Virus genome (UHGV): UHGV-0242533
Length of the DNA: 64,000 nucleotides
Origin: a virus
Direction: 5' to 3' (one strand)
Below are positions 4,396 through 39,799 of this stretch, one piece after another (position 1 is the stretch's first letter; every line of letters begins with the position of its first letter). The notes beneath the pieces are model-generated. The model was given only the letters and a program-made list of their open reading frames with translations, was not told the DNA's origin and did not search any database. A program made the translations under genes and the position numbers.

Positions 4396-4398
4396 TTG

Positions 4399-4427
4399 TT
4401 GACACGGTTATAGATTGGCAGTATTAT
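4399..4427 (+). promoter_or_regulatory. sigma70-type early promoter (TTGACA-17-TATTAT)
   Basis: Same AGTTGTTGACA box as 3849 promoter; -10 TATTAT at 4422-4427. Confidence 0.5.
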
Positions 4428-4462
4428 TACTTCATCAAGACAACATTAAAGGAATCAAGACA

Positions 4463-4792
4463 ATGAAAACCCTAATCGCATCTGCTCTTTTATCTGTAGC
4501 TGTTCTTTCAACTGTTGGATGTTCTTCTTCTCCGCGTCCTAACGGTTGGTGTGCTCTGGAAGTTGAAGGCACTTGTGTGATGCGTTGGAAAGATGGCGTT
4601 AAGGTTCCTGCTGGTGAGATTGACATGAAGTACGAAGGTGCTAGCTGTTCTAATGGTGGGTCTGTTGATGAAAAAGCCTATCGTGAGCGTGATATGAAAA
4701 CACAAGCCGATTGGAAGAAGTCAGATTTTATCTCCCGAGCAACTCATTGCGGTGGCAATACTTCCGTTAAGGGTAAAGAATGGGACATTTAA
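4463..4792 (+). CDS. lipoprotein (paralogue of 13380..13679)
   Basis: ATG 4463 with AAAGGA RBS; signal peptide ending in lipobox LSTVGC; shares W-C-A-[VL]-[AE]-V-E-G and VP-[AS]-GEIDM and C-G-G motifs with the second copy. Confidence 0.7.
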   Translation: MKTLIASALLSVAVLSTVGCSSSPRPNGWCALEVEGTCVMRWKDGVKVPAGEIDMKYEGASCSNGGSVDEKAYRERDMKTQADWKKSDFISRATHCGGNTSVKGKEWDI

Positions 4793-5731: not shown

Positions 5732-5759
5732 TTGACAAGGTATCCAAACGTAGTAAGAT
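5732..5759 (+). promoter_or_regulatory. strong sigma70-type promoter P1 (TTGACA-16-TAAGAT) with A-rich upstream element
   Basis: Exact TTGACA at 5732-5737; AAATAAAAAGA upstream. Confidence 0.55.
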
Positions 5760-5879
5760 GGGTATCAGAAACAAAGCAAGGAAACTTGCAAATGCTCTTT
5801 AAAAACTTATCATCTTGCCCTTTCGCAAAGATTCACGCGAGATAAGGGAAAGGAATTCAAAGAAGATGATAAAAAAGAG

Positions 5880-9255: not shown

Positions 9256-9309
9256 AGCCGCCTTTGAGCGGCTTTTTGCGTTACCGCCTCCTTAATTGGA
9301 GGCTTTTTT
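9256..9309 (+). terminator. two tandem rho-independent terminators
   Basis: AGCCGC-loop-GCGGCT+TTTTT and GCCTCC-TTAATT-GGAGGC+TTTTTT. Confidence 0.6.
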
Positions 9310-9335
9310 GTATCTATTATATAGGAAACCATGAA

Positions 9336-18529: not shown

Positions 18530-18539
18530 AAGGTTAGTT

Positions 18540-20310: not shown

Positions 20311-20319
20311 GAGGTTATC

Positions 20320-20937: not shown

Positions 20938-22037
20938 CAACTGTAGCGCAAACTTTTGGATATCGAGAAGGTCGTTTAACTGAGGCGCATAGTTCAATTG
21001 CACTTCAGTGCGGTGTCGGTATTGAACTTGAACTCGAAGGTTCTGAACATATCGAAGCAGATATGTGGGATTGCACAGAGGATGGTTCCCTGCGTAACGG
21101 TTGTGAAATGGTATGTTCACGACCTTACAACGGACAGGAGTTGTTAGACGCTATCAACAACCTGAGTGAAGCAGTAGCTGAATCGCACGCCGAGGGGACT
21201 TGGCGTTGCTCTACTCACGTTCATATGGATATGAGGGATGCTGATAGTAATATCCTCAAGAAGACCATCCTTGCTTGGACCTTCTATGAAAAGATGCTGT
21301 TCAAGTGTTCAGGCTACCATCGTTACCGTAGCAATTTCTGCCCTGCGTTTGCAGTGGTACAAGCACAGGTAATGAATGCCTCTGACGCATTTAACTACGA
21401 TGGTGAAGAATTCTTCAACCGTCTGGTTCGTTCATGGGATAAATATACATCTCTGAACCTTCTGCCACTTGCCCAATACGGTTCAATTGAGTTCCGTATC
21501 AGTGAGCCTAAGTGGAAACGTGGTCAACTTCTCAATCTGGTTAACCGCTTCTTGATGTTGAAGAAGCTGGCTTTAGATAACGCAGATATGAGCAATGATC
21601 AGTTTATTGAGCACTTAAATACTGTACGATTTGCCCCAATGCTTCCCTACCTTCCTCTGGATTACAATCTGGATGAATCTGATTTGCATTCAGGATATTG
21701 TATGGCCCGTGATGTTTTGTATTGCCGTTCTCATGAAGTAGAACAGTCTGGTCGTATTCGTTTACGTAGAACTAACTCCAACGGAGATGTTCTTGTTGAC
21801 TTACGTCATATGTCAGACTTCTACGGATTCCTTGGATATGTCCGAGGGAACGCTAACAATTTGTACCAAGAGATTCTGGTTATGCTTCGTACAGCAGACC
21901 TATCTCAAGTAAGACACGCTCCAGAACAGCGTATCCGTGCTATTTTTGACTTACTGCGTGAGTCAGGTCACAGTGATAGCAATATCACAGGGTACATTCC
22001 AGACCATCTGGAAAATCAGTTAGAGCAAGCGCTGTAA
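20934..22037 (+). CDS. amidoligase (carboxylate-amine ligase family), copy 2
   Basis: VGIELELEG, STHVHMD, GSIEFRISE motifs. Confidence 0.65.
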   Translation: MTTVAQTFGYREGRLTEAHSSIALQCGVGIELELEGSEHIEADMWDCTEDGSLRNGCEMVCSRPYNGQELLDAINNLSEAVAESHAEGTWRCSTHVHMDMRDADSNILKKTILAWTFYEKMLFKCSGYHRYRSNFCPAFAVVQAQVMNASDAFNYDGEEFFNRLVRSWDKYTSLNLLPLAQYGSIEFRISEPKWKRGQLLNLVNRFLMLKKLALDNADMSNDQFIEHLNTVRFAPMLPYLPLDYNLDESDLHSGYCMARDVLYCRSHEVEQSGRIRLRRTNSNGDVLVDLRHMSDFYGFLGYVRGNANNLYQEILVMLRTADLSQVRHAPEQRIRAIFDLLRESGHSDSNITGYIPDHLENQLEQAL

Positions 22038-22116
22038 TCAATGGGTGCCTCTGACAAAGGGGCACAATTTAAAGGTTAATTAGATGAAAGGGTTTACCCT
22101 TCAGGTGGATTAGAAA

Positions 22117-24147
22117 ATTTGTGGCATCGTATTAGCTGGCGGTAATCTGTCAAGCACTGATTTAGACGTATTCAACCAACTCTTTTATGCTGGAGTATTC
22201 CGAGGACAACATTCCTCCGGCATCTTTGGTCAGCGTAAAAGCACTAAGGAAGTCTTCACTTATAAAGAAGCTCTTCCTTCTTTCGCATTCATCCTACAAG
22301 ATGAGTACAAGAAGCATACCACTGGTGAAACAGCTTACACTGTAGCACCTTCATGGATTGTTGGTCACAGTCGTCATGCAACGAAAGGTGCAGTTAACGC
22401 CAAGAACGCCCATCCTTTCCAACATGGTAACATCACTCTGGTTCATAATGGAACCTTGATGGACCAAGACCTGTTACCTGACAGTAAAAACTTCGAGGTA
22501 GACAGTGAGAACATCTGCCACTCTATTAACACTATTGGTGCAGCAGAGACTATTCAAAAGCTGGATGGTGCTTTCACCTTAATCTGGCATGATGCTTCTG
22601 ATAACCGTCTTCATATCATCCGTAACGAAGAGCGTCCATTCCATCTCGCACGTTGTAACAGAGATTGGTTTGGTGCTTCTGAAGAAGACATGTTGATGTG
22701 GATTCTGAAGCGTTCTAGATCTCACAAGAACCGTATTGATGAGCATTTTGAATGTAAAGTTGGTACAGAATATATCTTTGATATGTCAAACAACAGCATG
22801 ACTCTGGTTGAAGAGGTCGCCCACGAGCTTCCGGTTTTTACGGTAATCAATCGTTGGGGCAATTACTACTCGAACAACTACAGCCAAAGCAACTATCAAA
22901 GTTCCTCAAAAAGCAATACAAGCAATCCTTACGACACGAAGCCGGGAGTGACAGCGGCAGACGTTCGTCGAAGAAACGCAGTGGTAAGTCAAAACAAAAT
23001 CGCAAGCGATCGAAACATTGATATTCGCCGTGATATGACTGTGGAAATCACACCACATGAGTTTGTTCCTTATGCAGCTGCTGGTGCTGTTCCTTCTCGT
23101 GGTAAGATGATCGGTTATATCTACGATGAGAAGTCTCAAGAGTATATCGAAGGTGATGTTCATAATGTAGACATTAAGGCTTATCAGGATGCACTGAAAG
23201 ACCCTAAAATTGTTTACCGTGGAACAGTATCCTGCATCTCCGAAGTTAATGCTATGGTTCGTTTAGTGATCACAGCAGGTCGTTTTGTTGACCCATCTCT
23301 GGAGAAAAAGGAGCCTGAGTCTACTACTGCTGACTTTGATGATGATATCCCTTTTGACATGAATGATAGTTTCGTCAACAAGAATGGCGTTACTATCACT
23401 CGTAAATTCTGGGAAGCACACTCTCATGGTGACTGTGGTGGTTGTGACAAACACATTGATTGGAAGGACGCACCTAAAGCAGTCTTCGCATATCAGTGCT
23501 ACTGGCATCCTGAATGTCTGGAAGGTTTGACTAAACCTAAAGAGGAAGAAGAGGAGGAAACTCCTATTGGTGTTTGTGAAATCTGCGGTGAAGTTAAAAC
23601 AGAGAATGAGTTCGATGATGAACTTAGTCGTCTTCGTGGTGAAGATATCTGTAAAGTCTGCGCTGTAGAAGTAAAGAAGAAAGTATCTAATGCTACGATC
23701 AAAGATGGTTATGTATGGATTAAAGCAACAGATACAACAAACGCCCGTCGTCCTGAATTTGCTTTACGTGTAACTGAAGATATGATTGGTCGTATGACTG
23801 TATTACCTTCCTCAGCGAAACAGACAGGCATCACTCTGGAGGATGTTGTTGATGCTTATGTTGAGAAACGTAGCAACAGTATTTTTGCAATCTCAACTAA
23901 GCCAAAAAAGGAGGAACCTGCTGAGAAAGCAGGTGTGTTTCCTGAATCACGAACAGCTCTCCGAAAAACTGTTGTCAGCTTCGACGGAAACCGAAGCACT
24001 GACTTCACCAAAGCCATGTGGTCAACCCTCGGATACTGCTCAGAGTGTTTTAAGCAGATTCCGTGGCGCGATGCTGAAAGTTGTACGCTTGGTTCTATGA
24101 ATCAAGTTTATTGTAATTCTCCTAAATGTTCATTGAATAGAGGTTAA
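22117..24147 (+). CDS. class-II (Ntn-type) glutamine amidotransferase domain fused to Cys-rich zinc-ribbon-like C-terminal region
   Basis: C-G-I-V at 22120 then FRGQHSSGIFG, HSRHATKG...NAHPF, HNGTL motifs; frame open only from 22114; the codon before Cys is ATT (22117), preceded by in-frame TAG and a 9-codon ATG ORF (22084); the ORF track shows only the 22456..24147 portion. Confidence 0.75.
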   Translation: MCGIVLAGGNLSSTDLDVFNQLFYAGVFRGQHSSGIFGQRKSTKEVFTYKEALPSFAFILQDEYKKHTTGETAYTVAPSWIVGHSRHATKGAVNAKNAHPFQHGNITLVHNGTLMDQDLLPDSKNFEVDSENICHSINTIGAAETIQKLDGAFTLIWHDASDNRLHIIRNEERPFHLARCNRDWFGASEEDMLMWILKRSRSHKNRIDEHFECKVGTEYIFDMSNNSMTLVEEVAHELPVFTVINRWGNYYSNNYSQSNYQSSSKSNTSNPYDTKPGVTAADVRRRNAVVSQNKIASDRNIDIRRDMTVEITPHEFVPYAAAGAVPSRGKMIGYIYDEKSQEYIEGDVHNVDIKAYQDALKDPKIVYRGTVSCISEVNAMVRLVITAGRFVDPSLEKKEPESTTADFDDDIPFDMNDSFVNKNGVTITRKFWEAHSHGDCGGCDKHIDWKDAPKAVFAYQCYWHPECLEGLTKPKEEEEEETPIGVCEICGEVKTENEFDDELSRLRGEDICKVCAVEVKKKVSNATIKDGYVWIKATDTTNARRPEFALRVTEDMIGRMTVLPSSAKQTGITLEDVVDAYVEKRSNSIFAISTKPKKEEPAEKAGVFPESRTALRKTVVSFDGNRSTDFTKAMWSTLGYCSECFKQIPWRDAESCTLGSMNQVYCNSPKCSLNRG

Positions 24148-24149
24148 GT

Positions 24150-24383
24150 ATGGAAATTCGTAAGATGATGCTGGATAATGTTGTAACTACTCGACGTATC
24201 CCGATGACGAGCACAGGATGTGACAACCTTCGTGCAATCCAGAAGTGGATGCAAGCTGGTATTGGTCAAGTACTTGAAACACAGGTTGAGGTTCCTTTCC
24301 CAACGGTGATCAACAACGTGCTTGCTGATTATGTAAAAATCAAAGGCATTAAGGTAGAACCTCATGTCAAATCTGGTTCCTAA
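24150..24383 (+). CDS. hypothetical protein (77 aa)
   Basis: ORF. Confidence 0.5.
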   Translation: MEIRKMMLDNVVTTRRIPMTSTGCDNLRAIQKWMQAGIGQVLETQVEVPFPTVINNVLADYVKIKGIKVEPHVKSGS

Positions 24384-24588
24384 GAAACCAAAGATCACTC
24401 TCCTACAGTATTACATGGGAGTTCATATCGAATTAGTAACGGAGCAGCGAAAGCTGTATCCGTTCGCTTTCGGTCTGATTGATGCACCATCCGATGAAGT
24501 AGAGAACGATGCGTTCAACGACTACTTCGAAATTGAAGCTCAGATTCAAAAAACTCGTAACGAAATTCTTAAACTTAAAGGTATCTAA
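24364..24588 (+). CDS. hypothetical protein (74 aa)
   Basis: ORF. Confidence 0.5.
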   Translation: MSNLVPKKPKITLLQYYMGVHIELVTEQRKLYPFAFGLIDAPSDEVENDAFNDYFEIEAQIQKTRNEILKLKGI

Positions 24589-24590
24589 CA

Positions 24591-25784
24591 ATGACTACTC
24601 GTATCCGTGTTCTTCCTTATGGTCCTTCTGATTCAGTTCGTGAACTTACTTCTGCAATTAACACTAAGATTCAGGAACTTCGCTTAAACGCTAACGTAAT
24701 GTCTCTGGTATCAGAAGGCTCTCGTTATCGTTCTCGAGTTGGTGATATTGTTGTCAACTATGGAAACCGTCGATACAATGATTCTTTCTTTGGTGGGGCA
24801 ACTGTATTGAACTCTGTGGTTGCCTTGAACCGAGCAGCTAATAAGATTGCAGCATTTAACGCATTGCGTTTAGCTGAAGTTAAAACTGTTGAATACACCA
24901 CTGATCGTGAATTAGCTCTGAACTGGAACCAGAACGAAATTGTTTACGAACGTGCAACATTAACTGGTCACTCTGGTGAAGGTATCACTGTTCGTCTTCC
25001 GACAGAAGGTGTTGCAGATGCCCCTCTATACACCAAAGGTATTCAAGGCCCACGTCGTGAATGGCGTGTTCATGTATTTGAAGGTGTTATCACTTACGTT
25101 CAGAAGAAGATTCGTCGTAATGGATACCGTGATCTGTCAACCTATCGTGAAGACATTCGCAATCACCATACTGGTTGGGTTTATTCCTCAAACTTCCAAG
25201 ATGCACCACCTCCTCAAGTATTGATTCAAGCTCACAAAGCTGTAGAAGCTCTTGGATTGAACTTTGGTGCTGTTGATCTAATAAGCAAAGTTTCTAACGC
25301 TTGGGTTCTGGAAGTAAATACTGCTCCTGGGCTGACTGGTACAACTCTGGAAACTTACACTCATAATATTGTTGAGTTTGTTAAGAGCTTCTCTGGAGTT
25401 GATCCTGATTATCGTGTTGCTTACGAACTGCCTGTTGAAGAAGTGGAAGAGTTTGCTGAATCAGCAGATGACGAGAACTTTGCATTGACAGCTGAACCAG
25501 TTGTTGAAGAGTCTTCGGAGCCTGTTCCTGAAACAATGCAAGTGGAAGAACAAGGGTTAGAGATCAACCCTGTCACCCGTCGTACTTTACGTCGTGGTTA
25601 TTACATCGCTAATATCAAGCACCCTGAGAATGGTTCAACTGTAGCAAGTAATGTGATCTTGTTCTTCTGTGGTCGTAACTTCTACCGCTCTGGGTGGAAC
25701 GCACCGATTAGTGATCGCCAGCTTGGTCGTGTGTTGCAGATTAACAGTCTTACTCTGAATGATGGCACTGTTGTAAACTACTAA
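24591..25784 (+). CDS. ATP-grasp ligase (RimK/glutathione-synthetase-like) with acidic C-terminal extension
   Basis: EWRVHVF and AVDLI...VLEVNTAPGL motifs. Confidence 0.7.
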   Translation: MTTRIRVLPYGPSDSVRELTSAINTKIQELRLNANVMSLVSEGSRYRSRVGDIVVNYGNRRYNDSFFGGATVLNSVVALNRAANKIAAFNALRLAEVKTVEYTTDRELALNWNQNEIVYERATLTGHSGEGITVRLPTEGVADAPLYTKGIQGPRREWRVHVFEGVITYVQKKIRRNGYRDLSTYREDIRNHHTGWVYSSNFQDAPPPQVLIQAHKAVEALGLNFGAVDLISKVSNAWVLEVNTAPGLTGTTLETYTHNIVEFVKSFSGVDPDYRVAYELPVEEVEEFAESADDENFALTAEPVVEESSEPVPETMQVEEQGLEINPVTRRTLRRGYYIANIKHPENGSTVASNVILFFCGRNFYRSGWNAPISDRQLGRVLQINSLTLNDGTVVNY

Positions 25785-25790
25785 GGATAT

Positions 25791-26039
25791 ATGGATATGT
25801 TTTCATTGGAAGATCTAGTACAAAATGGAATGATGGAACAAAAAGAGCCTCTTATTGTAGGCTCTCGTAAAGAGTTGCGTAAATTGTGCGAGGAGTGGGG
25901 TATTACTAATCAGCGAATGGTTGGTAATCAATTCTCTGCAATTGTAACTTTCCTAAAACGTGGTGATAAATACTCTATGGAATGTGTAGAACGTATCATC
26001 ACTGAAGCACAACAAGACAAAGGAGTAACATATCTATGA
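25791..26039 (+). CDS. hypothetical protein (82 aa)
   Basis: ORF. Confidence 0.5.
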   Translation: MDMFSLEDLVQNGMMEQKEPLIVGSRKELRKLCEEWGITNQRMVGNQFSAIVTFLKRGDKYSMECVERIITEAQQDKGVTYL

Positions 26040-26221
26040 ATAAGTATAAAGTTCTGTTTAAAGATACCAATGCCGCTGGTGAAATGCGAGCTATGGACCT
26101 AGATGCTGACATGTTTAACTTCTCTGATGGCAAAGTGGCCTTCTTTCAAGGAAGTGAAGCCGTTGCAGTGTTTGAGAGTGCAGCAATCTGTGGTGTAATC
26201 AAAATCTTTATTACAGAGTAA
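26036..26221 (+). CDS. hypothetical protein (61 aa)
   Basis: ORF. Confidence 0.45.
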   Translation: MNKYKVLFKDTNAAGEMRAMDLDADMFNFSDGKVAFFQGSEAVAVFESAAICGVIKIFITE

Positions 26222-26274
26222 TCTGCTTTAGCCTCTTCGAAAGAGGGGGCTAGTTTGGATAAACTGGAGAATAT

Positions 26275-26454
26275 ATGAAACTTTTTGATGAAAAACACAA
26301 AAAGCAAATGGAAGACAACTCTAAGAAGTTGGAATCCAATCTTCGTAAACGTGTAGCCCAAGGCTCGGATGGTTCTCTGTTCGGAAATATCGGATACTCT
26401 TTTGCCAAGAATCTTTTACATAGTATGGAAACCAGAAAAGTGATAAAGAAATAA
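26275..26454 (+). CDS. hypothetical protein (59 aa)
   Basis: Not in ORF track; ATG 26275 with GGAG RBS. Confidence 0.4.
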   Translation: MKLFDEKHKKQMEDNSKKLESNLRKRVAQGSDGSLFGNIGYSFAKNLLHSMETRKVIKK

Positions 26455-26513
26455 AACAGTTTTCTTTATCTACAACTCATGAACAAATTATTTAACATAG
26501 AAAGGTATTTAAA

Positions 26514-26933
26514 ATGTCAGAAGTAATTTACGTAGCAACTTATGGTTCTCTTCGTCGTGGTCAAGCTAACTATTTAGTTAATGATCGAGCTGGTGCTAAG
26601 TCTATTGGCGAGGGTTGGACTGAAGATAACTTCGATCTGTTCCGTTACGGTGGTTCCTACTTCCCGAGCATCTCTCTCGCACACAGCAATAGCAATAAGC
26701 CTGTTCGTGTAGAAGTGTTTGCTACTGACAAAGCAGGTCTGGAAGGTCCATATGACCGACTGGAAGGTTACAACAAACGTAGCCCTGAAGACAGCTTCTA
26801 TCAGCGTACTCAGATTGCTGTTAAGATGGACTCAGGTGAAACTGTTATCGCTTGGATTTATCACATTGACGAAGAACAAGATGTTCTGGTCGAATCTGGC
26901 GACTGGTCAGAGTATCTGAAAAGTGAATCTTGA
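26514..26933 (+). CDS. gamma-glutamyl cyclotransferase-like (AIG2/GGCT fold) protein
   Basis: N-terminal VATYGSLRRG motif. Confidence 0.65.
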   Translation: MSEVIYVATYGSLRRGQANYLVNDRAGAKSIGEGWTEDNFDLFRYGGSYFPSISLAHSNSNKPVRVEVFATDKAGLEGPYDRLEGYNKRSPEDSFYQRTQIAVKMDSGETVIAWIYHIDEEQDVLVESGDWSEYLKSES

Positions 26934-27152: not shown

Positions 27153-28640
27153 ATGTCAAAGATCATTTTGGGAGACACAGGTTGTAAGGAATGTATCTCT
27201 CATGGTCGTGATAAAACCCACAACCACATGATTCTCTTCCGTAACGAAGAGACAGGTGAGGAGTGGGGGAGTTGTAACCGTTGTGGGAATTACGAAGTGT
27301 TCGAAAAGGGCACTACACCTACTCCAAACGAGAAGAAAGAGCTATCCCCTGAAGAGTTAAGAGAAGTCTTAGACGATTGCTTAGAGCTTCCTCAGGGTGA
27401 ACTTACTCGACGTTTAATCCCTAAAGCCGTATCAGAGCGTTTTGAGTGTCGAATTGGTCTAAGTCAGACTGATGGTCAGACTCCAGACAGCTACTTCTTT
27501 CCTCGTGAACGTGATGGAAACATTGTCGGTTATGAGGTTAAGCTGCTTGACAGTAAGAAGTTCTATTACGTTGGCAGTGTGAAAGAAGCAGATTTATTTG
27601 GTATGGCACAGGCTCAGCGTGGAGATGTGTACAACAAGAAGCTGTTCATTTTTGAAGACCCGCTATCCTGTATGTCAGGTTTCCATGTCCTTACAGCTTT
27701 TACAAATGCAACAAACATTAAACCAGCATGTGTTTCTTTACCGTTCGGTGCAGGTTCAATCTCTTCTGTGTTGTCTCGTAATCGAGACTTCGTAAATGGT
27801 TTTGAGGAGGTTGTGCTCTGCATGGACAATGACGATGCAGGTGAGATAGCTTTAACAAAAGGTCGTTCTTTATTCCCTCATGTCAAGTTTGCTCGTATTC
27901 CTAAAGGAACCTTCCCATACAACGGTGTGGAGAAAGAGATTAAGGATGCGAATGACATGCTTCTGTCTGGTCGTGGTCAGGAGTTATTCAACATTCTCAA
28001 GTATTCAGCAAAGCGAGAATCTCCTGCTGGCGCTGTAACAATCTTTGATTGCCTTGATGATGCTCTGAAGAAAGCGGAGTGGGGTATTCCATATCCGTGG
28101 AAGACTCTGAATGAGATGACCTTTGGTATTCGATGGGGAGAGGTGGTAGCAATCGGTGGTGGTGTAGGTAGTGGTAAGACACTAATTGCTCACGAGCTGG
28201 TTGCTCATCTGTGCTTAGAGCATGGTTTTAATGGGGGTGGCTTCTTCTTGGAAGAGAAGGTAGGCATGTCTGTTAAGAACATCGCTGGTAAGTCAGCATC
28301 AATTCCTTTCCACCGACCTGATGTTGAATATGATGAGGAGGATTTGCGTAATGAAGCACTTCGTTATGCAGACAAATTCTTCTTGTATGACAACTTCGGA
28401 CAGAATGAATGGGAAGACATTAAACAGTGTATCCGTTTCTGGGTAGTTGAAAACCAGTGTAAGTTCATCATCCTTGATAACATTACCGCTCTGGTATCTC
28501 ATTTAACACCTTCAGAGATTAACACTGAAATCAGTAAGATTGCTTCAGAGCTTGCTGGTATGTGTAAAGAGTTAGACTTTACCGCTTTCGTTCTATCTCA
28601 CCTTAATGCTCCGGCAGGTGGTGCTCCTCATGAAGAGGGT
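27153..28640 (+). CDS. DNA primase-helicase (T7 gp4-like), exon 1
   Basis: Zn finger C-x2-C...C-x2-C, primase region, Walker A GGGVGSGKT, SHLN...HEEG motif; the ORF hits a stop (28644-28646) inside the conserved helicase domain. Confidence 0.8.
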
Positions 28641-29436
28641 AAGTAACAAGCCCTCTATAAATTCTGTGAACTCAGGGGAACTCTAGAACAGACAATCCTG
28701 AGCTAAGCCTAGTAATAACCCTCCTATAAGGAGGTAATATGAAACAGTATCTTGGAAAATATACGGTTCATAAAGATGGACGAATAATCAGTCACTATAA
28801 CGGGAAGCCTTTAACCATCTCTCTTTACAAACCAAATAAACAGGGTAAGAAGATTGTTTATCCTAGAGTTAGGCTCTGTATTGACGGGAAAGGTAAATGG
28901 TTTGCACTACACAGGATTATAGCTGAATGCTATATCCCAAATCCAGAAAATCTTCCACATATAAACCATAAAGATGGAAACAGATTGAATAACTCTGTTG
29001 AAAATCTTGAATGGTGCAGTCATCTACAGAATATACGGCATGCCCAAGAACACAACCTCAACCCTAAAGGAGAGAGGCAAGGTATTGCAGTTGCAACTGA
29101 AGAGATTGTAAGGAGAATTAGAAGTTTAAGAAGGGGTGGTATGTCTTATAAAGATATCGCTGAGCTTGTTAAACTTAAGAGAAGAACAGTCGAAGCTATT
29201 GGTTCTTATCAAAACTGGAAACACATAGAGTGAGTGGTTATTACTAGGAAAGTGCAACGACTAGGGTGGGCGTAAGCCCGAAGTACAGCCAAGCGGTGTC
29301 ATTAACATTGACTTAAATGGAAGCGCAGAACCTTCAAATTGAAGTGAAGATATAGTCTGGTCTACATGGGGACATGTAGCAGTTCAGAGATAGAACCTGA
29401 ACGGGGTGTGATTAGCGATCACATCTGAACACAACG
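28641..29436 (+). mobile_element. group I self-splicing intron (about 0.8 kb) carrying an HNH homing-endonuclease ORF
   Basis: Host gene frame shifts by +1 across the insert; 3' region has AAGATATAGTC (near-canonical group I S element), GACTA/TAGTC P7 candidates and three stable hairpins; exon 1 ends in T, insert ends in G; boundaries approximate (+/- 6 nt). Confidence 0.6.
28739..29233 (+). CDS. HNH homing endonuclease (intron-encoded)
   Basis: H-x-H...N...N-x-x-x-N-L-x-W...H-x-x-N pattern (INHKDGNRLNNSVENLEWCSHLQN); strong RBS AAGGAGG. Confidence 0.8.
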   Translation: MKQYLGKYTVHKDGRIISHYNGKPLTISLYKPNKQGKKIVYPRVRLCIDGKGKWFALHRIIAECYIPNPENLPHINHKDGNRLNNSVENLEWCSHLQNIRHAQEHNLNPKGERQGIAVATEEIVRRIRSLRRGGMSYKDIAELVKLKRRTVEAIGSYQNWKHIE

Positions 29437-29739
29437 GGACAGGTACGTGAAGTACAGTTCACTGGCTCTCGTTCTCTTATGCGTTGGTGTCAGTGTATCA
29501 TTGGCTTTGAGCGTGACAAGCAAGCTGACGGCTTAGCTAAGAACCTCTCAGTCATTCGATTACTGAAAGAACGTAACTACGGTCAGACAGGTGTTTGTTA
29601 TACTAAGTATATCAGTGAAACCGGTAGACTTGTAGAAAGGGAAGACTTTGAAGTTGATGAAGATAATCCATTCGTTTTAACTAACGGAGAGGATGCAGCT
29701 TCTCTCGTCAACCAAGCAGATGGAGCTTCACCGTGGTAA
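29437..29739 (+). CDS. DNA primase-helicase, exon 2 (helicase C-terminal motifs)
   Basis: VQFTGSRS...[10 protein letters not shown] resumes the helicase motifs as recalled from T7 gp4; no in-frame start codon before these residues. Confidence 0.6.
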
Positions 29740-30290
29740 AGAAAAAGAAGAAAGTGTTTGCATTCGATATCGAGAGTAATGCACTGTACGATGACATAAC
29801 TAAAGTATGGTGTATTTATATCTTTGATGTTGAAACTGGTGAAAGGTGGGGCTATCGGCCTCACCAAATTGAAGATGGGATTCATAAACTTACAGAAGCA
29901 GATGTGCTCGTGGGTCACAATATTATTGACTTCGACCTTTGTGCTCTGAAGAAAATGTATCCCAATCTAATTGAATATCGTTTTAACGTCTTTGACACTT
30001 TATGTCTTAGTCGATATCTTAAACCTGACCGTATTGGTGACAGTCCTGAGTATCCGAAAGGCGACCCTAGACATGGCCCAAGAGGTCATGGCTTGAAGCA
30101 ATGGGGTGAGTTCTTAGGGGAACTTAAAGGTGATTACGGTGAGCAAGAGGAAGCATGGGATGCTTTCACTGAAGATATGTTTACTTATTGTGAACAGGAC
30201 GTTAACTTAACTGTTAAGGTTTATCTTTTCTTGTGTGAACTCACGGGATTTGACCCTTACGACCCACCTTCATTATATTGGAAAATGTAA
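29733..30290 (+). CDS. DNA polymerase I family, 3'-5' exonuclease domain as a separate gene
   Basis: FDIESNAL (Exo I), HNIIDFD (Exo II), YCEQDV (Exo III); own GTG start and stop. Confidence 0.8.
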
Positions 30291-31671: not shown

Positions 31672-32205
31672 ATGAGTTTACTAGGAAGTGTTGAACTGCA
31701 TGATGTAATTGACAATGGCTATCTGGATGCGGAGCATAAGTATGTTAACGCTGCTAGTGTGGATATCCGTATTGGTGATACTATCCTTGTTGAAGAACAG
31801 GCTGATGGCATCGTTGATATTGATGCGAAAGAGAATCTTCAGTGGAAGGAAGTAAAGATTCCTGAAGAGGGTTTGGTTATCACTCCGGGTCAGTTCTTCT
31901 TGGCTCACTCTATGGAAGAGTTTAATCTTCCAGATAACATCTCAAGTCTGTTTGTCCTGCGTTCGTCTATGGCTCGTTGTGGTTTGAACCACCTTCACGC
32001 CGGTTGGGCAGATGCAGGATTTAATAGCAGTAAGCTGACATTTGAATTCCATAACGTAACCAAGCACCACAGTTTACGAGTTCGTGCTGGTATGCGTGTA
32101 GGTCAGATGGTAATGTTTGAGCACTCTCATGCAGGGGAACACTCCTATGCAGTGAAGGGTCGTTATAATAACTCTGAAGGTGTAGTTGCATCTAAAGGTG
32201 TGTAA
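31672..32205 (+). CDS. dCTP deaminase / dUTPase-superfamily protein
   Basis: LRSSMARCGL and ADAGFNS motifs. Confidence 0.65.
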   Translation: MSLLGSVELHDVIDNGYLDAEHKYVNAASVDIRIGDTILVEEQADGIVDIDAKENLQWKEVKIPEEGLVITPGQFFLAHSMEEFNLPDNISSLFVLRSSMARCGLNHLHAGWADAGFNSSKLTFEFHNVTKHHSLRVRAGMRVGQMVMFEHSHAGEHSYAVKGRYNNSEGVVASKGV

Positions 32206-32403
32206 ATGAAAAAATGGATTGTTCGTGTACATGATAACACGACTGGAGAGTTAGTAGCTGTAGATTTTGTTAAGACTCGAGAGCACGCACGTAGAGTCAA
32301 AAATCAATACAAGTCTACTTTTAGACTTAACAAGGTTACATTAGGAAGGGCTATTGTGAATAGCGAAGGTGCTTTTATTGCCAACAGTAAGGTTTATTAT
32401 TAA
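32206..32403 (+). CDS. small tandem-paralogue protein (copy 1 of 3)
   Basis: About 65 aa, basic, ends VYY. Confidence 0.5.
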   Translation: MKKWIVRVHDNTTGELVAVDFVKTREHARRVKNQYKSTFRLNKVTLGRAIVNSEGAFIANSKVYY

Positions 32404-32612
32404 TGAGACCGATCACTATGAGACAATTTTGGTTAGCAAAGATCAAGTGGGCATCAGGTGGCATGACTATGACTGCACTACCCACTCGCCAACAAGCTCG
32501 AGATTTTAAAAAGACTATGCTTACTGGTGACGTGGTCAATAGTATCAGTATCCATAAGGCCAAGGAGTATTCTTCTGGTCGTATTTATATCAGCGGAAAG
32601 GTGCATTACTAA
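32403..32612 (+). CDS. small tandem-paralogue protein (copy 2 of 3)
   Basis: Ends VHY; start-stop overlap. Confidence 0.5.
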   Translation: MRPITMRQFWLAKIKWASGGMTMTALPTRQQARDFKKTMLTGDVVNSISIHKAKEYSSGRIYISGKVHY

Positions 32613-32821
32613 TGAAAAAGATGTGGGCTATTCGTGTTGTCTGGGAACAGAAACAACACTTAGGTAAAGATAATATCAAACTGTTTAACACTCGCAAAGA
32701 GGCTCGTGTCGCTAAAAAGAATATGAAAGCTCTAATAGGAACTGTTAAAAGTGCTGACATTCATCGCTGGTATGAAGACCCTAGCTCGGGTTCTTTTATG
32801 TCTAAAGTAATTTATTACTGA
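32612..32821 (+). CDS. small tandem-paralogue protein (copy 3 of 3)
   Basis: Ends IYY; start-stop overlap. Confidence 0.5.
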   Translation: MKKMWAIRVVWEQKQHLGKDNIKLFNTRKEARVAKKNMKALIGTVKSADIHRWYEDPSSGSFMSKVIYY

Positions 32822-32893: not shown

Positions 32894-33223
32894 ATGTTAG
32901 ATTTGAGTAAAGTGGCCCCGCCCACTGAAGAGATTACAAAATCCAAGGTGATGCAACAGTTTTATCATCGTGATATGCTTGGTCGCTTTATCAAGAATCG
33001 TGATGTTGTTGCTTGGTCTATTGGTAATCAGGGATATCTGTTGAAGGTTCTTCAGGTTACAGGTTCAACTGCTAAGCGAGTTAAGGTGTATGACCCTGAA
33101 ATGGGGCGTTCTAAGTCAGTAGACCCACAGAACTGCATCGTAATTACCCAGCAGGTAATGGATAATATTGCACGTAACGTTGCTAACTCAGTTGAACTTG
33201 ATGGAGAAAACCCAAATGCATAA
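32894..33223 (+). CDS. hypothetical protein (109 aa)
   Basis: ORF. Confidence 0.6.
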   Translation: MLDLSKVAPPTEEITKSKVMQQFYHRDMLGRFIKNRDVVAWSIGNQGYLLKVLQVTGSTAKRVKVYDPEMGRSKSVDPQNCIVITQQVMDNIARNVANSVELDGENPNA

Positions 33224-33779
33224 GAATGTTTTTGATTTACCTGATATTGGTCGTTCAGAATATAACATGTTAGACCGGTCTGAGCTTTCAATCTCTCGCC
33301 TTGAAACAATGCAGGGTATGATTAGTGGAAACAGCCTAGAACACATCCTGAGCTGCTTGCAAGCTAACATGGAACTCTTGCATATCAAAGCTAAAAACTA
33401 CCACTGGAACGTCTCTGGTGCAGGATTTCAGGGTGTTCATGGTATGTTTGACGAGCTGGAAGATTACGCACGACAGGTAGGAGATCGTATTGCTGAACGT
33501 ATGCGTTACCACTGTGTTAAAGTGGACGCTACAGCAGCTAACTACCTCTCTCATGCTTGGTTCTCAGAGGGTAACGCTGATCTAGACATGGACGGTATGC
33601 TCTCTGATATGTGCATGACCTTGATGTGTATTATTGAGAAGATGGATGAGTTTGATGGCGATTTAGCCACTTACCCTGTCGATCAGAGTATGCTTCAAGA
33701 AATTAATGAAGGTCTTGGCAAGTATTGCTACTTCGTCAAGAGCAACATGTCCCATTCAAGTGGTGACGTGTCTTACTAA
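33216..33779 (+). CDS. Dps-like ferritin-superfamily protein
   Basis: KAKNYHWNVSGAGFQGVHGMFDE...DRIAER signature; ATG 33216 with GGAG RBS. Confidence 0.65.
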   Translation: MHKNVFDLPDIGRSEYNMLDRSELSISRLETMQGMISGNSLEHILSCLQANMELLHIKAKNYHWNVSGAGFQGVHGMFDELEDYARQVGDRIAERMRYHCVKVDATAANYLSHAWFSEGNADLDMDGMLSDMCMTLMCIIEKMDEFDGDLATYPVDQSMLQEINEGLGKYCYFVKSNMSHSSGDVSY

Positions 33780-33839: not shown

Positions 33840-34019
33840 ATGTTATCAGCAATCGTATGGGGTATTTGGGCTATCTTTATCGGTGGTGGTATTTATTGGG
33901 CTTCTGGTAAGCTTATTGAAGAAACTCCTGATAAGAAAGGTGAGATTCAAACAGCATCAACCATCATGGTTATCGTAGCTGTTGTTATCCCGTTCCTGCT
34001 TCACCTCCTGACTGCATAA
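33840..34019 (+). CDS. small two-TM membrane protein (59 aa)
   Basis: Not in ORF track; hydrophobic segments. Confidence 0.4.
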   Translation: MLSAIVWGIWAIFIGGGIYWASGKLIEETPDKKGEIQTASTIMVIVAVVIPFLLHLLTA

Positions 34020-34027
34020 GGATTTAC

Positions 34028-34303
34028 ATGTCTAAAGTAATTAAGTTTTATAGTGATCAGTGTGCTCCATGTAAAGCAATGGCTCCTACCTTTGAGAAGG
34101 TTGTTAAGGAGTTTGATGTAGAAGTGGAAGAGATTAACATCCTTGAAGGTGATGGTCGTGAACAAGCTGTTAAGTATGGTGTACGAAGCATCCCTGCTTT
34201 CGTTGTGCCTGACCGTAACAGTGGTGCACACTACAGCCTCTCTGGTATGCAGACTGAAGCAAACCTGAAAGCATTTTTGGACACAGCCCTGAGCAATAAG
34301 TAA
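34028..34303 (+). CDS. thioredoxin-like protein (CAPC active site)
   Basis: FYSDQCAPCK, SIPAFVV motifs; 91 aa. Confidence 0.7.
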   Translation: MSKVIKFYSDQCAPCKAMAPTFEKVVKEFDVEVEEINILEGDGREQAVKYGVRSIPAFVVPDRNSGAHYSLSGMQTEANLKAFLDTALSNK

Positions 34304-34318
34304 TAAGGATATTCACGG

Positions 34319-34975
34319 ATGAATGAACAACTACAAGCAACATTAATCGAAGCTATGGGAAGCGATCGTAGCGTAGTAAACGCAGCTCGAGTTTCCTTTG
34401 GCGTAACCCGTGAAGGTGATTTAAATGAACGTGATGAACGTCTCATCAACTTCCTCGCAAGAGAGAAGCATGTTACCCCATTCCGACATCCGCAAGTCAG
34501 TTTCCGATGCAAAGCACCTATCGCAATTGCGAGACAGTTGGGCAAGCATCAGGTTGGATTCTCGTGGAACGAAATGTCCCGGCGGTATAAAGATGGAGAA
34601 GTTGAAGTCTTCATCCCTAAAGAGATTTTTGCGAGACCTTCGGACCTCCATGCAGGTTCAGGGACACAGCTCATCGACGGAGAACGAGCTGAAGCATTAA
34701 TGTTGATTAACGATGCATATGAAGCTTCTCTAGCAGCATATGACAAGTTGATTGAGTTTATTGCACCAGAGCAAGCTCGATTTGTTCTTCCTCAGGGAAT
34801 GATTACTGAGTGGGTGTGGACTGGTTCTTTGTATGGATGGTTTGAGTTGTGCCGTCAACGACTCTCCTCTCATGCTCAGTATGAAGTTCGAGTGTTTGCT
34901 AAATCCTTAGATGAAGAAATGGCTAAACTCTACCCAATCTCATGGGCAGCTCTGAAGAAAACCTTGGAGAATTAA
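34319..34975 (+). CDS. thyX: flavin-dependent thymidylate synthase ThyX-like protein (variant signature KHQ-x7-S-x-RY)
   Basis: FRHP...QLGKHQVGFSWNEMSRRY and RFVLPQG...YEVR regions. Confidence 0.65.
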   Translation: MNEQLQATLIEAMGSDRSVVNAARVSFGVTREGDLNERDERLINFLAREKHVTPFRHPQVSFRCKAPIAIARQLGKHQVGFSWNEMSRRYKDGEVEVFIPKEIFARPSDLHAGSGTQLIDGERAEALMLINDAYEASLAAYDKLIEFIAPEQARFVLPQGMITEWVWTGSLYGWFELCRQRLSSHAQYEVRVFAKSLDEEMAKLYPISWAALKKTLEN

Positions 34976-37954: not shown

Positions 37955-39799
37955 GTGAGCAACCCGGACGCTCTTCCATTTTTGACAGAGATGACTGTCG
38001 CTGATATAATCTCTAAGCAAGCAAAGCACGGAGTGAGTTTCAACCGAAGAAATGCTCGGTGGTATGTTCACCTCCTTAAAGAGATTATTGTTAATATTGA
38101 CAGAGAGTTGATTCCTCTCTTACCTAAGATGAGATTAGATGGCTCTACTTACATGAAGCCGTTTAAGAAGTCTGGAGCTTTACAGAAGTGGCCTCAAGCC
38201 TATTGTGATAGGGTTGGGCTGAAGAGAGAAGATATTGGTGGAGCTTTCACCTGTGTCGAATACGTAGACTTTGACCCATCGAAAGATGCACGAGTTAAAG
38301 AAGCTCTTATGGATGAGGGCTTTCTTCCTCCAGAGTTTAACGTATCTAAGAAGCCTTGGAATACTTTCGAAATTAAGAAAGATATGAGAAAGTATGGAAC
38401 ATACCAAGCATGGTATACTGCTTGGATGCGAGGTAATGCTAAGCAAAAACAGACAGCCGAGATGGTTGACGCTGATATTAAGAAGTTCTTAGAAAAGCAT
38501 TTCAGGTTTAAGACTAAGAATTACATGAAGGCTTACGTATTTGGTTTGGGGTTGAACCCTAATCGCCGTAATCCTGTAACGTTTGATGAGATTAAGAAAG
38601 CACTAGCCACATCAAACAAGTGGCCTACAGCTCCTACAAACCTCGAGGAGACTCTTGAAGAAGGGTTAGGGGGTGAGCTAGGGAGTGTCGGAAGTTTGCT
38701 TAAGAAACGCGTTGTAGCGGCTCACAGGCTAGGTCTTATCAGTGGACTCATAGCAAAGGAGCGCGAAGATGGTAAACTTTCGGCAGAAGCTAACAGCTGC
38801 GCTACGCCGACTTTTCGATTCAAACATCGTATCGTGGTTAATATTCCCTCCCGTGGTCTGTTTGGTCACGAGTGTCGCAGTTTGTTTGAGTCTGACTATA
38901 ACTCAGACAGTGATCACTCTCGTCCTTTCGTTATTACTAACGTTGTTCCTGATGGTTGTTATATACGAAAGGGTACTAACGTAATTTACGAGAAAGGTAA
39001 GCCGGGGAAGAAAGACAAACCTGTAGGTGCTTACAAATATTACATACCCGCTGGTAAAGAAGTATTCTTAGGGTATGATGGTTCTGGACTTGAACTTCGT
39101 ATGCTCGCTCACTACCTCATCAAAGAGTGTAGAGATATGCTTGCTGAAGCAATCGAAGAGAACAATCCAGCTAAGAAAGCTCTGGCAGAACGCGGTCTAG
39201 CTTCTGCTATTATGTATCGTGATATTCTCCTTGAAGGTGATATCCACTCCCACAACCAGAAACTTGCTGGTCTTCCTACTCGTGACAATGCTAAGACATT
39301 TATCTATGCATTCAACTACGGTGCTGGTGATGCTAAGCTTGGTTCAATTGTAGGTGGTGGGGCTGACGAAGGTTCAGTGATGCGAGCACGTTTCTTAGCA
39401 GAGAACCCATGTATTGCAATCCTCATTGATCGCATGACAGAGAAAGCTGCTCAAGGATACTTGATTGGTGTTGATGGTCGTAAGATTACAATGAGACGAG
39501 ATGCCACTGGTAAAGTTATGGTTCATAAAGCCCTTAATACACTCCTGCAATGTGCTGGTGCTGTTGTTATGAAATATGCTATGATGTTCCTTAACAAGTG
39601 GATTGAGAAGGATGGGGTTCGTTGTGCTAAGGTAATTGATATGCACGATGAAGGCCAGTTCTCAGTGAATCGTAATGATGTACAGAAACTCAAAGAGCAC
39701 ACTGAGCTTTGTGTTAAGAAGGCTGGTGAGTACTTGAACATGGAATGTCCTCTGGCTTCTGATTGTCAGATTGGATTAAATTGGATGCATACGCACTAA
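37955..39799 (+). CDS. DNA polymerase I family, polymerase domain as a separate gene
   Basis: Motif A DGSGLELR, motif B RDNAKTFIYAFNYGAG, motif C HDEGQF; GTG start with AAAGGAG RBS. Confidence 0.85.
   Translation: MSNPDALPFLTEMTVADIISKQAKHGVSFNRRNARWYVHLLKEIIVNIDRELIPLLPKMRLDGSTYMKPFKKSGALQKWPQAYCDRVGLKREDIGGAFTCVEYVDFDPSKDARVKEALMDEGFLPPEFNVSKKPWNTFEIKKDMRKYGTYQAWYTAWMRGNAKQKQTAEMVDADIKKFLEKHFRFKTKNYMKAYVFGLGLNPNRRNPVTFDEIKKALATSNKWPTAPTNLEETLEEGLGGELGSVGSLLKKRVVAAHRLGLISGLIAKEREDGKLSAEANSCATPTFRFKHRIVVNIPSRGLFGHECRSLFESDYNSDSDHSRPFVITNVVPDGCYIRKGTNVIYEKGKPGKKDKPVGAYKYYIPAGKEVFLGYDGSGLELRMLAHYLIKECRDMLAEAIEENNPAKKALAERGLASAIMYRDILLEGDIHSHNQKLAGLPTRDNAKTFIYAFNYGAGDAKLGSIVGGGADEGSVMRARFLAENPCIAILIDRMTEKAAQGYLIGVDGRKITMRRDATGKVMVHKALNTLLQCAGAVVMKYAMMFLNKWIEKDGVRCAKVIDMHDEGQFSVNRNDVQKLKEHTELCVKKAGEYLNMECPLASDCQIGLNWMHTH

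What the first reader, a model, noticed from the sequence alone, without database searches (positions are those of the whole stretch)
34028..34303. Phage thioredoxin-like protein with no ribonucleotide reductase in the window
A CAPC thioredoxin-fold protein is encoded between the two halves of a T7-like DNA polymerase. T7 polymerase uses host thioredoxin as a processivity factor, so this protein may be the phage's own polymerase cofactor rather than a reductant.
Basis: inference. Interest (0 to 1): 0.45.

Follow-up and report, generated by a model that had tools for sequence, protein, structure and literature searches.

The report
Known phiEco32-type phage thioredoxin gene
This is the already-annotated small thioredoxin (gp65) of phiEco32-like coliphages, which truly lack any ribonucleotide reductase; the idea that it serves the phage's T7-like DNA polymerase is published and untested, and the evidence here leans slightly against it.

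Summary
ORF 34028..34303(+) encodes a 91-aa thioredoxin-fold protein with a C12-A-P-C15 motif, 100% identical to phiEco32 gp65. It lies in a 7.6-kb gene island between a separate 3'-5' exonuclease subunit (matching T7 gp5 residues 1-196) and a polymerase subunit whose best match is T7 gp5. No RNR exists in the window or in the complete phiEco32 genome. The part of the genome the window lacks encodes only virion genes.

The Privateer paper (PMC7881722, 2021) already proposed that this thioredoxin couples to the T7-like polymerase.

In favour: the polymerase has an ordered ~52-residue insert at the site of T7's 76-residue thioredoxin-binding domain, and a short thioredoxin accompanies this polymerase clade whatever the RNR content.

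Against: the insert is present in all 93 aligned homologues, LUZ24-like sequences included, and a complete LUZ24-like genome has no thioredoxin-fold gene. Both cysteines, the cis-proline and the Arg73-equivalent are invariant. The gene's neighbours are always nucleotide-metabolism or Dps-like genes, and in Aeromonas phage LAh_9 the homologue sits in the NrdAB cluster.

My best guess is a redox-active reductant (about 0.4). A polymerase cofactor role is about 0.25. Co-folding could not be run.

The parts
34028..34303 (+). Short thioredoxin (phiEco32 gp65 orthologue), 91 aa. Active site C12-A-P-C15, cis-Pro P56, no N-terminal beta1-alpha1.
34018..34022 (+). Shine-Dalgarno AAGGA, five nucleotides upstream of the ATG; it overlaps the stop codon of the upstream small ORF.
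   Evidence: Read directly from the sequence.
29733..30290 (+). DNA polymerase 3'-5' exonuclease subunit (gp74 orthologue). Matches T7 gp5 residues 1-196, and the Exo I, II and III motifs (DIESN, NIIDFD, YCEQD) are present.
37955..39799 (+). DNA polymerase subunit (gp53 orthologue), 614 aa, T7 gp5-like thumb, palm and fingers without an exonuclease domain.
38111..38269 (+). Codons for polymerase residues ~53-105: an ordered beta-sheet plus helix insert between thumb helices H and H1, at the site of the T7 thioredoxin-binding domain (T7 residues 258-333).
   Evidence: Alignment; AF2 secondary structure and pLDDT of about 90; present in 93 of 93 homologues at 48-55 aa.
33216..33779 (+). Dps-like ferritin (gp67 orthologue) with all four ferroxidase-site residues (H, H, D, E) conserved. 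It is a conserved neighbour of the Trx gene in Kuravirus and Grimontviridae.
   Evidence: synteny.
33840..34019 (+). 59-aa hydrophobic small ORF (gp66 orthologue, phrog_9296) between the Dps-like gene and Trx.
32894..33223 (+). 109-aa protein of unknown function (gp68 orthologue, phrog_10984) whose 3' end overlaps the Dps-like start. ORFs of 89-118 aa precede the Dps-like gene in relatives; homology to gp68 was not tested.
34319..34975 (+). FAD-dependent thymidylate synthase ThyX, starting 15 nt downstream of the Trx stop.
31672..32205 (+). dCTP deaminase. In Grimontviridae it lies immediately upstream of the Trx orthologue.

Best explanation
The ORF encodes a redox-active, minimal (N-terminally truncated) thioredoxin expressed with the phage's middle replication and nucleotide-metabolism genes. 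The most likely mechanism is as follows. Host thioredoxin reductase (TrxB) and NADPH reduce its C12/C15 dithiol. The reduced protein then passes electrons to host thiol-dependent enzymes, above all the host class Ia ribonucleotide reductase NrdAB on which this RNR-less phage must rely for de novo dNTPs. In relatives that carry NrdAB, it would serve the phage's own RNR. It works alongside the neighbouring dCTP deaminase and ThyX to sustain dNTP supply, and probably also keeps the infected cell reduced. What is shown: the fold, the motif, conservation, gene context, expression of the orthologue, and the absence of a phage RNR. What is inferred: redox activity, recycling by TrxB, and the identity of the electron acceptor.
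For: The fold and the closest structures are bacterial thioredoxin-1, including TrxA as seen in complex with TrxR and PAPS reductase. C12, P14, C15, the cis-Pro P56, G73 and R53 (equivalent to TrxA R73) are invariant in the aligned lineages down to ~39% identity, and the CxxC and cis-Pro also persist in the more distant LAh_9 and L011 proteins. Purely structural thioredoxin-like domains usually lose the CxxC (general knowledge). The gene sits in a nucleotide-metabolism island with dCTP deaminase, ThyX and PhoH, and with NrdD/NrdG in L007, GAP52 and L012. In LAh_9 the short thioredoxin lies in the cluster NrdB-NrdA-HNH-Dam-Trx-NrdA.1. Privateer has NrdAB plus this Trx. The only experimentally studied phage thioredoxin (Syn5) is redox active and promotes genome replication, and its authors favour RNR reduction.
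Against: The genome encodes no thioredoxin-dependent enzyme, and E. coli already has abundant TrxA and Grx1 for NrdAB, so the benefit of another reductant is unclear. GAP52 and L007 show only T4-like class III RNR genes in the stretches fetched (their genomes were not read in full); that type uses formate, not thioredoxin (established knowledge), yet they keep the Trx. The active-site neighbourhood is non-canonical: Gln replaces Trp31 and Lys replaces buried Asp26. The protein also scores below every NCBIfam thioredoxin cutoff, so its catalytic efficiency is unknown. The SU10 paper lists Trx among only eight middle CDSs shared by all five sequenced C3 phages, which seems a lot of conservation for a redundant reductant.
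Confidence: 0.4

Rival explanations
1. Polymerase processivity subunit. gp65 binds the ~52-residue insert at the tip of the thumb of the gp53 polymerase subunit, as E. coli TrxA binds the T7 TBD. This would give a three-piece replicase (exonuclease subunit, polymerase subunit and phage Trx) that does not depend on host trxA.
For: The polymerase is T7-like. It has an insert at the TBD site that aligns with the C-terminal part of the T7 TBD (T7 R318-E319...VEHVVFNPSS against R91-E92...VEYVDFDPSK). A short Trx-fold gene is found in every sampled lineage of this polymerase clade except the LUZ24-likes, whether the phage has no RNR, only class III RNR genes in the stretch read, or class Ia. Trx and the polymerase are among the few middle genes shared by all C3 phages. 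Kuravirus has no phage-encoded redox client. The model superposes on TrxA from the T7 complex 1t7p_B (TM 0.79).
Against: The insert lacks T7 residues 258-282. It is predicted to be an ordered subdomain on its own (pLDDT about 90). It is present at 48-55 aa in all 93 aligned homologues, LUZ24-like sequences included, and a complete LUZ24-like genome has no Trx-fold gene, so the insert does not track a phage Trx. TBD-Trx recognition is highly specific (Kd about 5 nM; a divergent thioredoxin, LPBCA, is not readily recruited). gp65 also differs at positions that, from memory, lie at the interface (W31Q, G74S). The Trx gene is never adjacent to either polymerase gene, and in LAh_9 it sits with NrdAB. 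In other split T7-like PolAs with a halved TBD, AF2 failed to dock thioredoxin. Syn5 Trx is not predicted to bind its polymerase.
Confidence: 0.25
2. Partner of the neighbouring Dps-like ferritin, possibly with the gp68-like protein. On this view the thioredoxin forms an iron and peroxide management module that protects replicating phage DNA, or delivers or mobilises iron, for example for Fe-dependent RNR cofactors in relatives.
For: Trx and the Dps-like gene are adjacent, separated by at most one small ORF, in both Kuravirus (Dps-x-Trx) and Grimontviridae (Trx-x-Dps) even though the order is inverted. Trx, Dps and gp68 are listed together among the eight middle CDSs common to all C3 phages. 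The Dps-like protein keeps the full ferroxidase site. The LUZ24-like genome lacks both genes.
Against: LAh_9 and L010 have the Dps-like gene without an adjacent Trx, and L011 has a mini-Trx with no Dps-like gene in the ±10 kb read. No cysteine pair is conserved in the phage Dps-like proteins for a thioredoxin to reduce. To my knowledge canonical Dps needs no thiol reductant.
Confidence: 0.12
3. Another thiol-dependent or scaffold role. Examples: it replaces or titrates host TrxA for a host process the phage needs, it counters a TrxA-dependent host toxin or defence, or it acts as a folding or assembly factor for virion proteins, as host Trx does for filamentous phage assembly.
For: The SU10 orthologue was recovered by MS from phage preparations. 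Foldseek hits include TrxA bound to Rhs toxins, a reminder that TrxA is a cofactor for unrelated proteins. A 2026 PPI predictor paired a phage thioredoxin with host MsrA.
Against: Nothing in this locus points specifically to any of these roles. Other non-structural middle proteins (polymerase, PhoH) were found in the same MS sample, which suggests carry-over rather than packaging.
Confidence: 0.1

Closest known systems
phiEco32 gp65 'thiol-disulfide isomerase and thioredoxin' (YP_001671810) and its orthologues in Kuravirus, and in Grimontviridae (GAP52 gp050, Privateer gp070)
   Same: 100% identical in sequence to phiEco32 gp65. The neighbours are the same (Dps-like, small TM ORF, ThyX), and so is the position between the exonuclease and polymerase subunits.
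   Different: Nothing of substance; this is the same gene in another isolate.
E. coli thioredoxin 1 (TrxA), the processivity factor of T7 DNA polymerase
   Same: Best structural match (TM about 0.8, rmsd 1.6-2.0 A, ~30% identity). It shares the CxPC motif, the cis-Pro loop (R-x-I-P), Gly92 and Phe27.
   Different: It lacks beta1-alpha1 (it aligns only to TrxA 24-107). The motif is QCAPC rather than WCGPC. Lys replaces Asp26, Ser replaces Gly74 and Tyr replaces Trp28. It scores 38 bits against the 138-bit TrxA cutoff. No binding to any polymerase has been shown.
Cyanophage Syn5 thioredoxin (preprint 10.1101/2025.10.05.680603)
   Same: A phage-encoded thioredoxin in a phage with a T7-like family A polymerase, for which the same two hypotheses (RNR reductant or processivity factor) were weighed.
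   Different: Syn5 encodes its own RNR; this phage does not. For Syn5 there are experimental data (redox activity, a replication defect in the mutant) and AF3 models. There are none for Kuravirus.
T4 NrdC and other RNR-coupled phage thioredoxins or glutaredoxins
   Same: A small (~87-91 aa) phage-encoded CxxC protein of the minimal thioredoxin fold, associated with nucleotide metabolism. The LAh_9 homologue lies in an NrdAB cluster beside an NrdA.1-like gene.
   Different: There is no cognate RNR in this genome.

Membership tests
Thioredoxin family (Pfam PF00085) | Thioredoxin fold: a central beta-sheet flanked by helices, with the active site at the N-terminus of the first long helix | tested here: met
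   AF2 model with pLDDT 92 and strand/helix order b-a-b-a-b-b-a. Foldseek TM of about 0.8 to 2TRX and other TrxA chains. Pfam E=2e-13, above the gathering score.
Thioredoxin family (Pfam PF00085) | CxxC redox motif and cis-proline loop | tested here: met
   C12-A-P-C15 and P56 align with TrxA C32-G-P-C35 and P76, and are invariant in all phage homologues.
Bona fide thioredoxin-1 (TrxA, TIGR01068, NF006898 equivalogs) | Canonical WCGPC motif, buried Asp26, and five-stranded sheet with N-terminal beta1-alpha1 | tested here: not met
   The motif is QCAPC, Lys6 occupies the Asp26 position, and the protein starts at TrxA residue ~22-24.
Bona fide thioredoxin-1 (TrxA, TIGR01068, NF006898 equivalogs) | Score above NCBIfam curated cutoffs | tested here: not met
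   TIGR01068: 49.2 bits against a cutoff of 96.8. TrxA NF006898: 37.8 against 138. TrxC: 40.9 against 125. MJ0307 family: 33.6 against 92.75.
Bona fide thioredoxin-1 (TrxA, TIGR01068, NF006898 equivalogs) | Disulfide reductase activity recycled by thioredoxin reductase and NADPH | not testable with these tools
   Only indirect evidence: invariant CxxC, and R53, G51 and P56 equivalent to the TrxA R73 loop.
T7-type polymerase-thioredoxin processivity complex | T7-like family A DNA polymerase | tested here: met
   T7 gp5 is the best PDB sequence hit (E=3e-33) and the best fold hit (E=2e-26, against about 1e-15 for Bst, Klenow and Taq). The exonuclease subunit matches gp5 residues 1-196.
T7-type polymerase-thioredoxin processivity complex | 76-residue thioredoxin-binding domain inserted between thumb helices H and H1 | tested here: inconclusive
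   There is an insert at the same site, but it is ~52 residues. It lacks T7 258-282, aligns only in the C-terminal part, and is predicted to be ordered. The same insert is in all 93 aligned homologues, LUZ24-like sequences included, and a complete LUZ24-like genome has no Trx-fold gene.
T7-type polymerase-thioredoxin processivity complex | Tight 1:1 binding of thioredoxin to the polymerase and a large increase in processivity | not testable with these tools
No biochemical data were found in the literature.
RNR-coupled phage thioredoxin or glutaredoxin (T4 NrdC type) | A cognate ribonucleotide reductase encoded by the same phage | tested here: not met
   No NrdA, NrdB, NrdD or NrdG homologue in the window or in complete phiEco32 (best E=0.065), and none annotated. 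The feature is met in relatives: Privateer, LAh_9, GAP52, L007.
RNR-coupled phage thioredoxin or glutaredoxin (T4 NrdC type) | Sequence membership in the NrdC, Grx or NrdH families | tested here: not met
Pfam Glrx-like scores below its cutoff.

The most novel reading that the evidence does not exclude
The short thioredoxin is a dedicated, virus-encoded third subunit of a split replicase made of a separate exonuclease subunit, a polymerase subunit and Trx. It would clamp onto the shortened TBD-like thumb insert and free these phages from dependence on host trxA. That would be the first viral thioredoxin shown to act as a polymerase processivity factor.
Probability: 0.22. Interest if true: 0.6.

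Novelty: already known. Interest (0 to 1): 0.3.

Why it matters
What phage-encoded thioredoxins do is still open. The 2025/26 Syn5 preprint states that their function had never been investigated. Kuraviruses offer an unusually clean test case. They infect E. coli K-12 (BASEL phages Bas87-94 are in public collections). They have a T7-like polymerase with a TBD-site insert. They encode no RNR and no other recognisable thioredoxin client. Simple genetics could therefore separate a structural role from a redox role: a gp65 deletion compared with a C12S/C15S mutant, plated on trxA, trxB and grxA hosts. If the cofactor idea were right, it would show that a virus can internalise a host factor that T7 borrows. 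If the redox idea is right, it is one more auxiliary metabolic gene. The sequence feature itself is ordinary and already annotated.

Tried and rejected
No interface prediction was possible.

2. The original phiEco32 paper (Savalia 2008) could not be read by DOI or by PMC id.

3. I could not find an open paper listing the gp5-Trx interface residues or the E319 suppressor genetics. Statements about E319, G74 and G92 rest on memory and carry little weight.

4. No literature was found on trxA dependence of Kuravirus or phiEco32.

5. I looked for a hidden thioredoxin in the LUZ24-like phage among the small ORFs in and next to the polymerase-split region (Pfam) and genome-wide (HMM and a CxxC...cis-Pro regex). 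None was found.

6. I considered a 'thioferritin' idea, in which a conserved cysteine pair in the Dps-like protein would be reduced by Trx. It was rejected because no cysteine is conserved across the phage Dps-like proteins.

7. I looked for the gp36-sigma promoter motif TAATGTAT near the Trx gene. The nearest plus-strand copy is at 36550, downstream of PhoH, and the motif count is barely above chance, so it says nothing about co-regulation.

8. I did not use the representative-library search or the third homologue search. Thioredoxin is a huge superfamily, and hits from the representative library could not have been placed in genomic context.

Full report
**What is there.** The ORF at 34028..34303 on the plus strand is real. 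It has an ATG start preceded by AAGGA five nucleotides upstream, encodes 91 residues and ends in TAA. It matches Pfam Thioredoxin PF00085 at E=2.1e-13, above the gathering score, and PHROG 22 'thioredoxin domain'. The motif is C12-A-P-C15. By sequence it aligns to E. coli TrxA residues 24-107 only. An AF2 model (pLDDT 92) shows the minimal beta-alpha-beta-alpha-beta-beta-alpha fold without the N-terminal beta1-alpha1 of classical thioredoxins. Its best structural neighbours are nevertheless E. coli TrxA chains (TM about 0.8, rmsd about 1.7 A, ~30% identity), including TrxA bound to T7 polymerase, to thioredoxin reductase and to PAPS reductase. It falls well below every curated NCBIfam thioredoxin cutoff (49 bits against 96.8 for TIGR01068). 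It is therefore a divergent thioredoxin-fold protein and not an equivalog of TrxA.

**Where the window comes from.** The window is a phiEco32-like coliphage of genus Kuravirus, 94-95% identical in nucleotides to SU10, Bas91 and others over the replication region. The protein is 100% identical to phiEco32 gp65, annotated since 2008 as 'thiol-disulfide isomerase and thioredoxin', and tblastn finds it in 117 phage records. The SU10 orthologue was detected by mass spectrometry at 52.8% coverage (PMC4281155).

**The polymerase claim.**
- ORF 29733..30290 aligns to T7 gp5 residues 1-196 (E=2e-17) with the three exonuclease motifs. phiEco32 annotates it as the 'DNA polymerase exonuclease subunit'.
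- ORF 37955..39799 (614 aa) has T7 gp5 as its best PDB sequence hit (E=3e-33). As a confident AF2 model (pLDDT 92), it also has T7 gp5 as its best fold hit (E=2e-26, against about 1e-15 for Bst, Klenow and Taq).
- 'Between the two halves of a T7-like polymerase' is therefore correct. The interval is a 7.6-kb island of more than 20 genes, and the Trx gene is about 3.7 kb from either half.

**The RNR claim.**
- tblastn with NrdA, NrdB, NrdD and NrdG from related phages finds nothing better than E=0.065 in the window or in the complete phiEco32 genome. The same queries hit their controls.
- The phiEco32 annotation has no RNR.
- The window maps in reverse onto phiEco32 and lacks only about 3.2-12.7 kb of it, which encodes terminase, portal, scaffold, capsid and a tail fibre.
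- A Pfam sweep of the remaining non-structural ORFs of 120 aa or more found no PAPS reductase, methionine sulfoxide reductase, peroxiredoxin or arsenate reductase.

**Prior art.** The Privateer paper (PMC7881722, 2021) notes that the thioredoxin is conserved in all C3-morphotype phages it examined. It hypothesises that the thioredoxin couples with the T7-like polymerase to improve processivity. I found no experimental test. A 2025/26 preprint on cyanophage Syn5 says the function of phage thioredoxins had never been investigated. It shows that the Syn5 protein is redox active and promotes genome replication. It reports that AF3 docks host thioredoxins, but not the phage one, on the polymerase TBD. 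A 2023 NAR survey of family A polymerases describes other split T7-like PolAs whose TBD is shortened by half and which AF2 could not dock to host thioredoxins.

**Does the polymerase have a thioredoxin-binding domain?** T7's TBD is residues 258-333 (76 aa) between thumb helices H and H1. In this polymerase, helix H is residues 31-55 and H1 is 111-120. Between them lies a ~52-residue segment predicted as strands 59-66 and 98-104 plus helix 78-87, with pLDDT of about 90. The segment lacks the first third of the TBD (T7 258-282). It aligns through the C-terminal part (T7 R318-E319...VEHVVFNPSS against R91-E92...VEYVDFDPSK). So a shortened, probably homologous insert sits at the right place. However, it is present in all 93 aligned homologues at 48-55 residues, with conservation equal to the protein average. 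These include LUZ24-like Pseudomonas phage sequences. A complete LUZ24-like genome (fHoPae04) contains no thioredoxin-fold gene by annotation, Pfam, a family HMM or a CxxC...cis-Pro pattern. The insert therefore does not track a phage-encoded thioredoxin. It either binds a host thioredoxin in some lineages or does something else. T7's TBD-Trx recognition is very specific (Kd about 5 nM; PMC8010470), so fold similarity alone says nothing about binding.

**Comparative genomics of the thioredoxin.**

| Lineage | Local gene order around Trx | RNR genes seen |
|---|---|---|
| Kuravirus (window, phiEco32) | gp68-like, Dps-like, small TM ORF, Trx, ThyX | none in the genome |
| Kuravirus-like contig L007 | Dps-Trx-ThyX | NrdD and NrdG |
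| Kuravirus-like contig L009 | Dps-x-Trx-ThyX | none in the ±10 kb read |
| Grimontviridae (GAP52, Privateer, contig L012) | primase/helicase, exo subunit, dCTP deaminase, Trx, small ORF, Dps-like, then NrdD or an NrdD-like fragment | NrdD/NrdG; Privateer also has NrdAB |
| Aeromonas phage LAh_9 | Dps-like near NrdD/NrdG; a 76-aa short thioredoxin (WCVNC) lies ~20 kb away in NrdB-NrdA-HNH-Dam-Trx-NrdA.1 | NrdAB and NrdD/NrdG |
| Contig L011 | 70-aa CGPC mini-thioredoxin two ORFs after the dUTPase/DCD gene | none in the ±10 kb read |
| LUZ24-like fHoPae04 | no Trx-fold gene in the whole genome | none annotated |

The LAh_9 protein is ~39% identical both to the Grimontviridae proteins and to EcTrxA. 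Across the aligned homologues (down to ~39% identity) plus EcTrxA, both cysteines, P14, the cis-Pro, G73, G51 and R53 (equivalent to TrxA R73) are invariant; the CxxC and cis-Pro also persist in the more distant LAh_9 and L011 proteins. The TrxA Trp31 and Asp26 positions are replaced in the aligned homologues by Q/S/T/N and K respectively.

**Weighing.** Persistence of the Trx across phages with no RNR, with only class III genes in the stretch read, or with class Ia RNR, together with the TBD-site insert, keeps the polymerase-cofactor model alive. Several points favour a catalytic thioredoxin belonging to the nucleotide-supply module:
- the CxxC and reductase-facing loop are strictly conserved;
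- the gene is consistently embedded among nucleotide-metabolism genes;
- it is linked to NrdAB in LAh_9;
- it is never adjacent to either polymerase gene;
- the thumb insert occurs independently of a phage Trx;
- the Syn5 precedent points the same way.

In Kuravirus such an enzyme would have to act on host enzymes, most plausibly NrdAB. The conserved pairing with a Dps-like ferroxidase suggests a third possibility, an iron and peroxide module. That pairing breaks in LAh_9 and L010 (Dps without adjacent Trx) and in L011 (Trx without Dps), and no cysteine pair is conserved in the Dps-like protein. My weights are: redox reductant 0.40, polymerase cofactor 0.25, Dps partner 0.12, other roles 0.10, with the rest unassigned.

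**Verdict.** The gene is already known and annotated. The proposed role is a published, untested hypothesis that these data neither establish nor exclude, and they lean modestly against it. The main value of the locus is as a clean experimental system in E. coli for asking what phage thioredoxins do.

Noticed in passing
window 28641-29436 (HNH ORF 28739..29233; Rfam hit 29097-29379): An ~800-bp insertion relative to phiEco32 splits the primase/helicase gene. The pieces are a 497-aa N-terminal ORF (27153..28646) and an ORF ending at 29739 (listed as 29479..29739) in the stretch that matches the 3' end of the phiEco32 gene. The insertion carries an HNH_3 endonuclease ORF and gives a sub-gathering but significant group I intron match (34.6 bits, E=9e-7). 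It is probably a mobile group I intron.
   Followed up: partly
window 9264..10058 (+): A 264-aa protein with collagen triple-helix repeats and a YadA-like membrane-anchor domain (Pfam E=2e-19) is encoded among the plus-strand non-structural genes. phiEco32 annotates the matching region as a 'tail protein'. A trimeric-autotransporter anchor is an odd domain for a phage.
   Followed up: no
window ~2600-5800: About 3.2 kb has no blastn match of over 400 bp to phiEco32. It includes a 'Phage_lipoprotein' family ORF at 4415..4792. This looks like a variable accessory region.
   Followed up: no
window 32894..33223 and 33216..33779; L005:14264-14982; L004:20275-21023; L012:1675-2393; L013:9424-10247: In the window, a 109-aa protein of unknown function (gp68-like) overlaps the start of the Dps-like gene. 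ORFs of 89-118 aa of unknown function precede the Dps-like gene in the same way across Kuravirus, Grimontviridae and Lahexavirus, which suggests a translationally coupled pair. Homology between these small proteins was not tested. In Privateer the Dps-like gene is followed by a short NrdD-like fragment, and in LAh_9 and L010 by a stand-alone ATP-cone protein.
   Followed up: partly
L011:7523-7735: A 70-aa mini-thioredoxin (MKTLYTSPTCGPCK...AIPTL...) lies two ORFs downstream of the dUTPase/DCD gene in an 85-kb metagenomic phage contig. It carries no precomputed Pfam label and was found only with a local profile and pattern search.
   Followed up: partly
window 17333-26933; also L006:10419-14815, L004:1746-8854, L014:38120-47461: A cluster of amidoligase, glutamine amidotransferase, COOH-NH2 ligase, ATP-grasp and gamma-glutamyl cyclotransferase genes is conserved from Kuravirus through the LUZ24-like phages. 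LAh_9 additionally encodes a glutathionylspermidine-synthase-domain protein. This may be a peptide or thiol-metabolite pathway. A link to the thioredoxin is conceivable but was not examined.
   Followed up: no
window 32206-32821 (+): Three tandem, back-to-back ORFs of 65-69 aa with similar sequences (all ending ...VxYY; the first matches phrog_4939) look like a small paralogous gene array of unknown function.
   Followed up: no
phage record LR745709.1 (hit H159): A 40.2-kb 'Escherichia phage T7' record carries an annotated trxA gene. From memory, it is presumably an engineered T7 with the host cofactor gene inserted, not a natural precedent for a phage-encoded polymerase thioredoxin.
   Followed up: no
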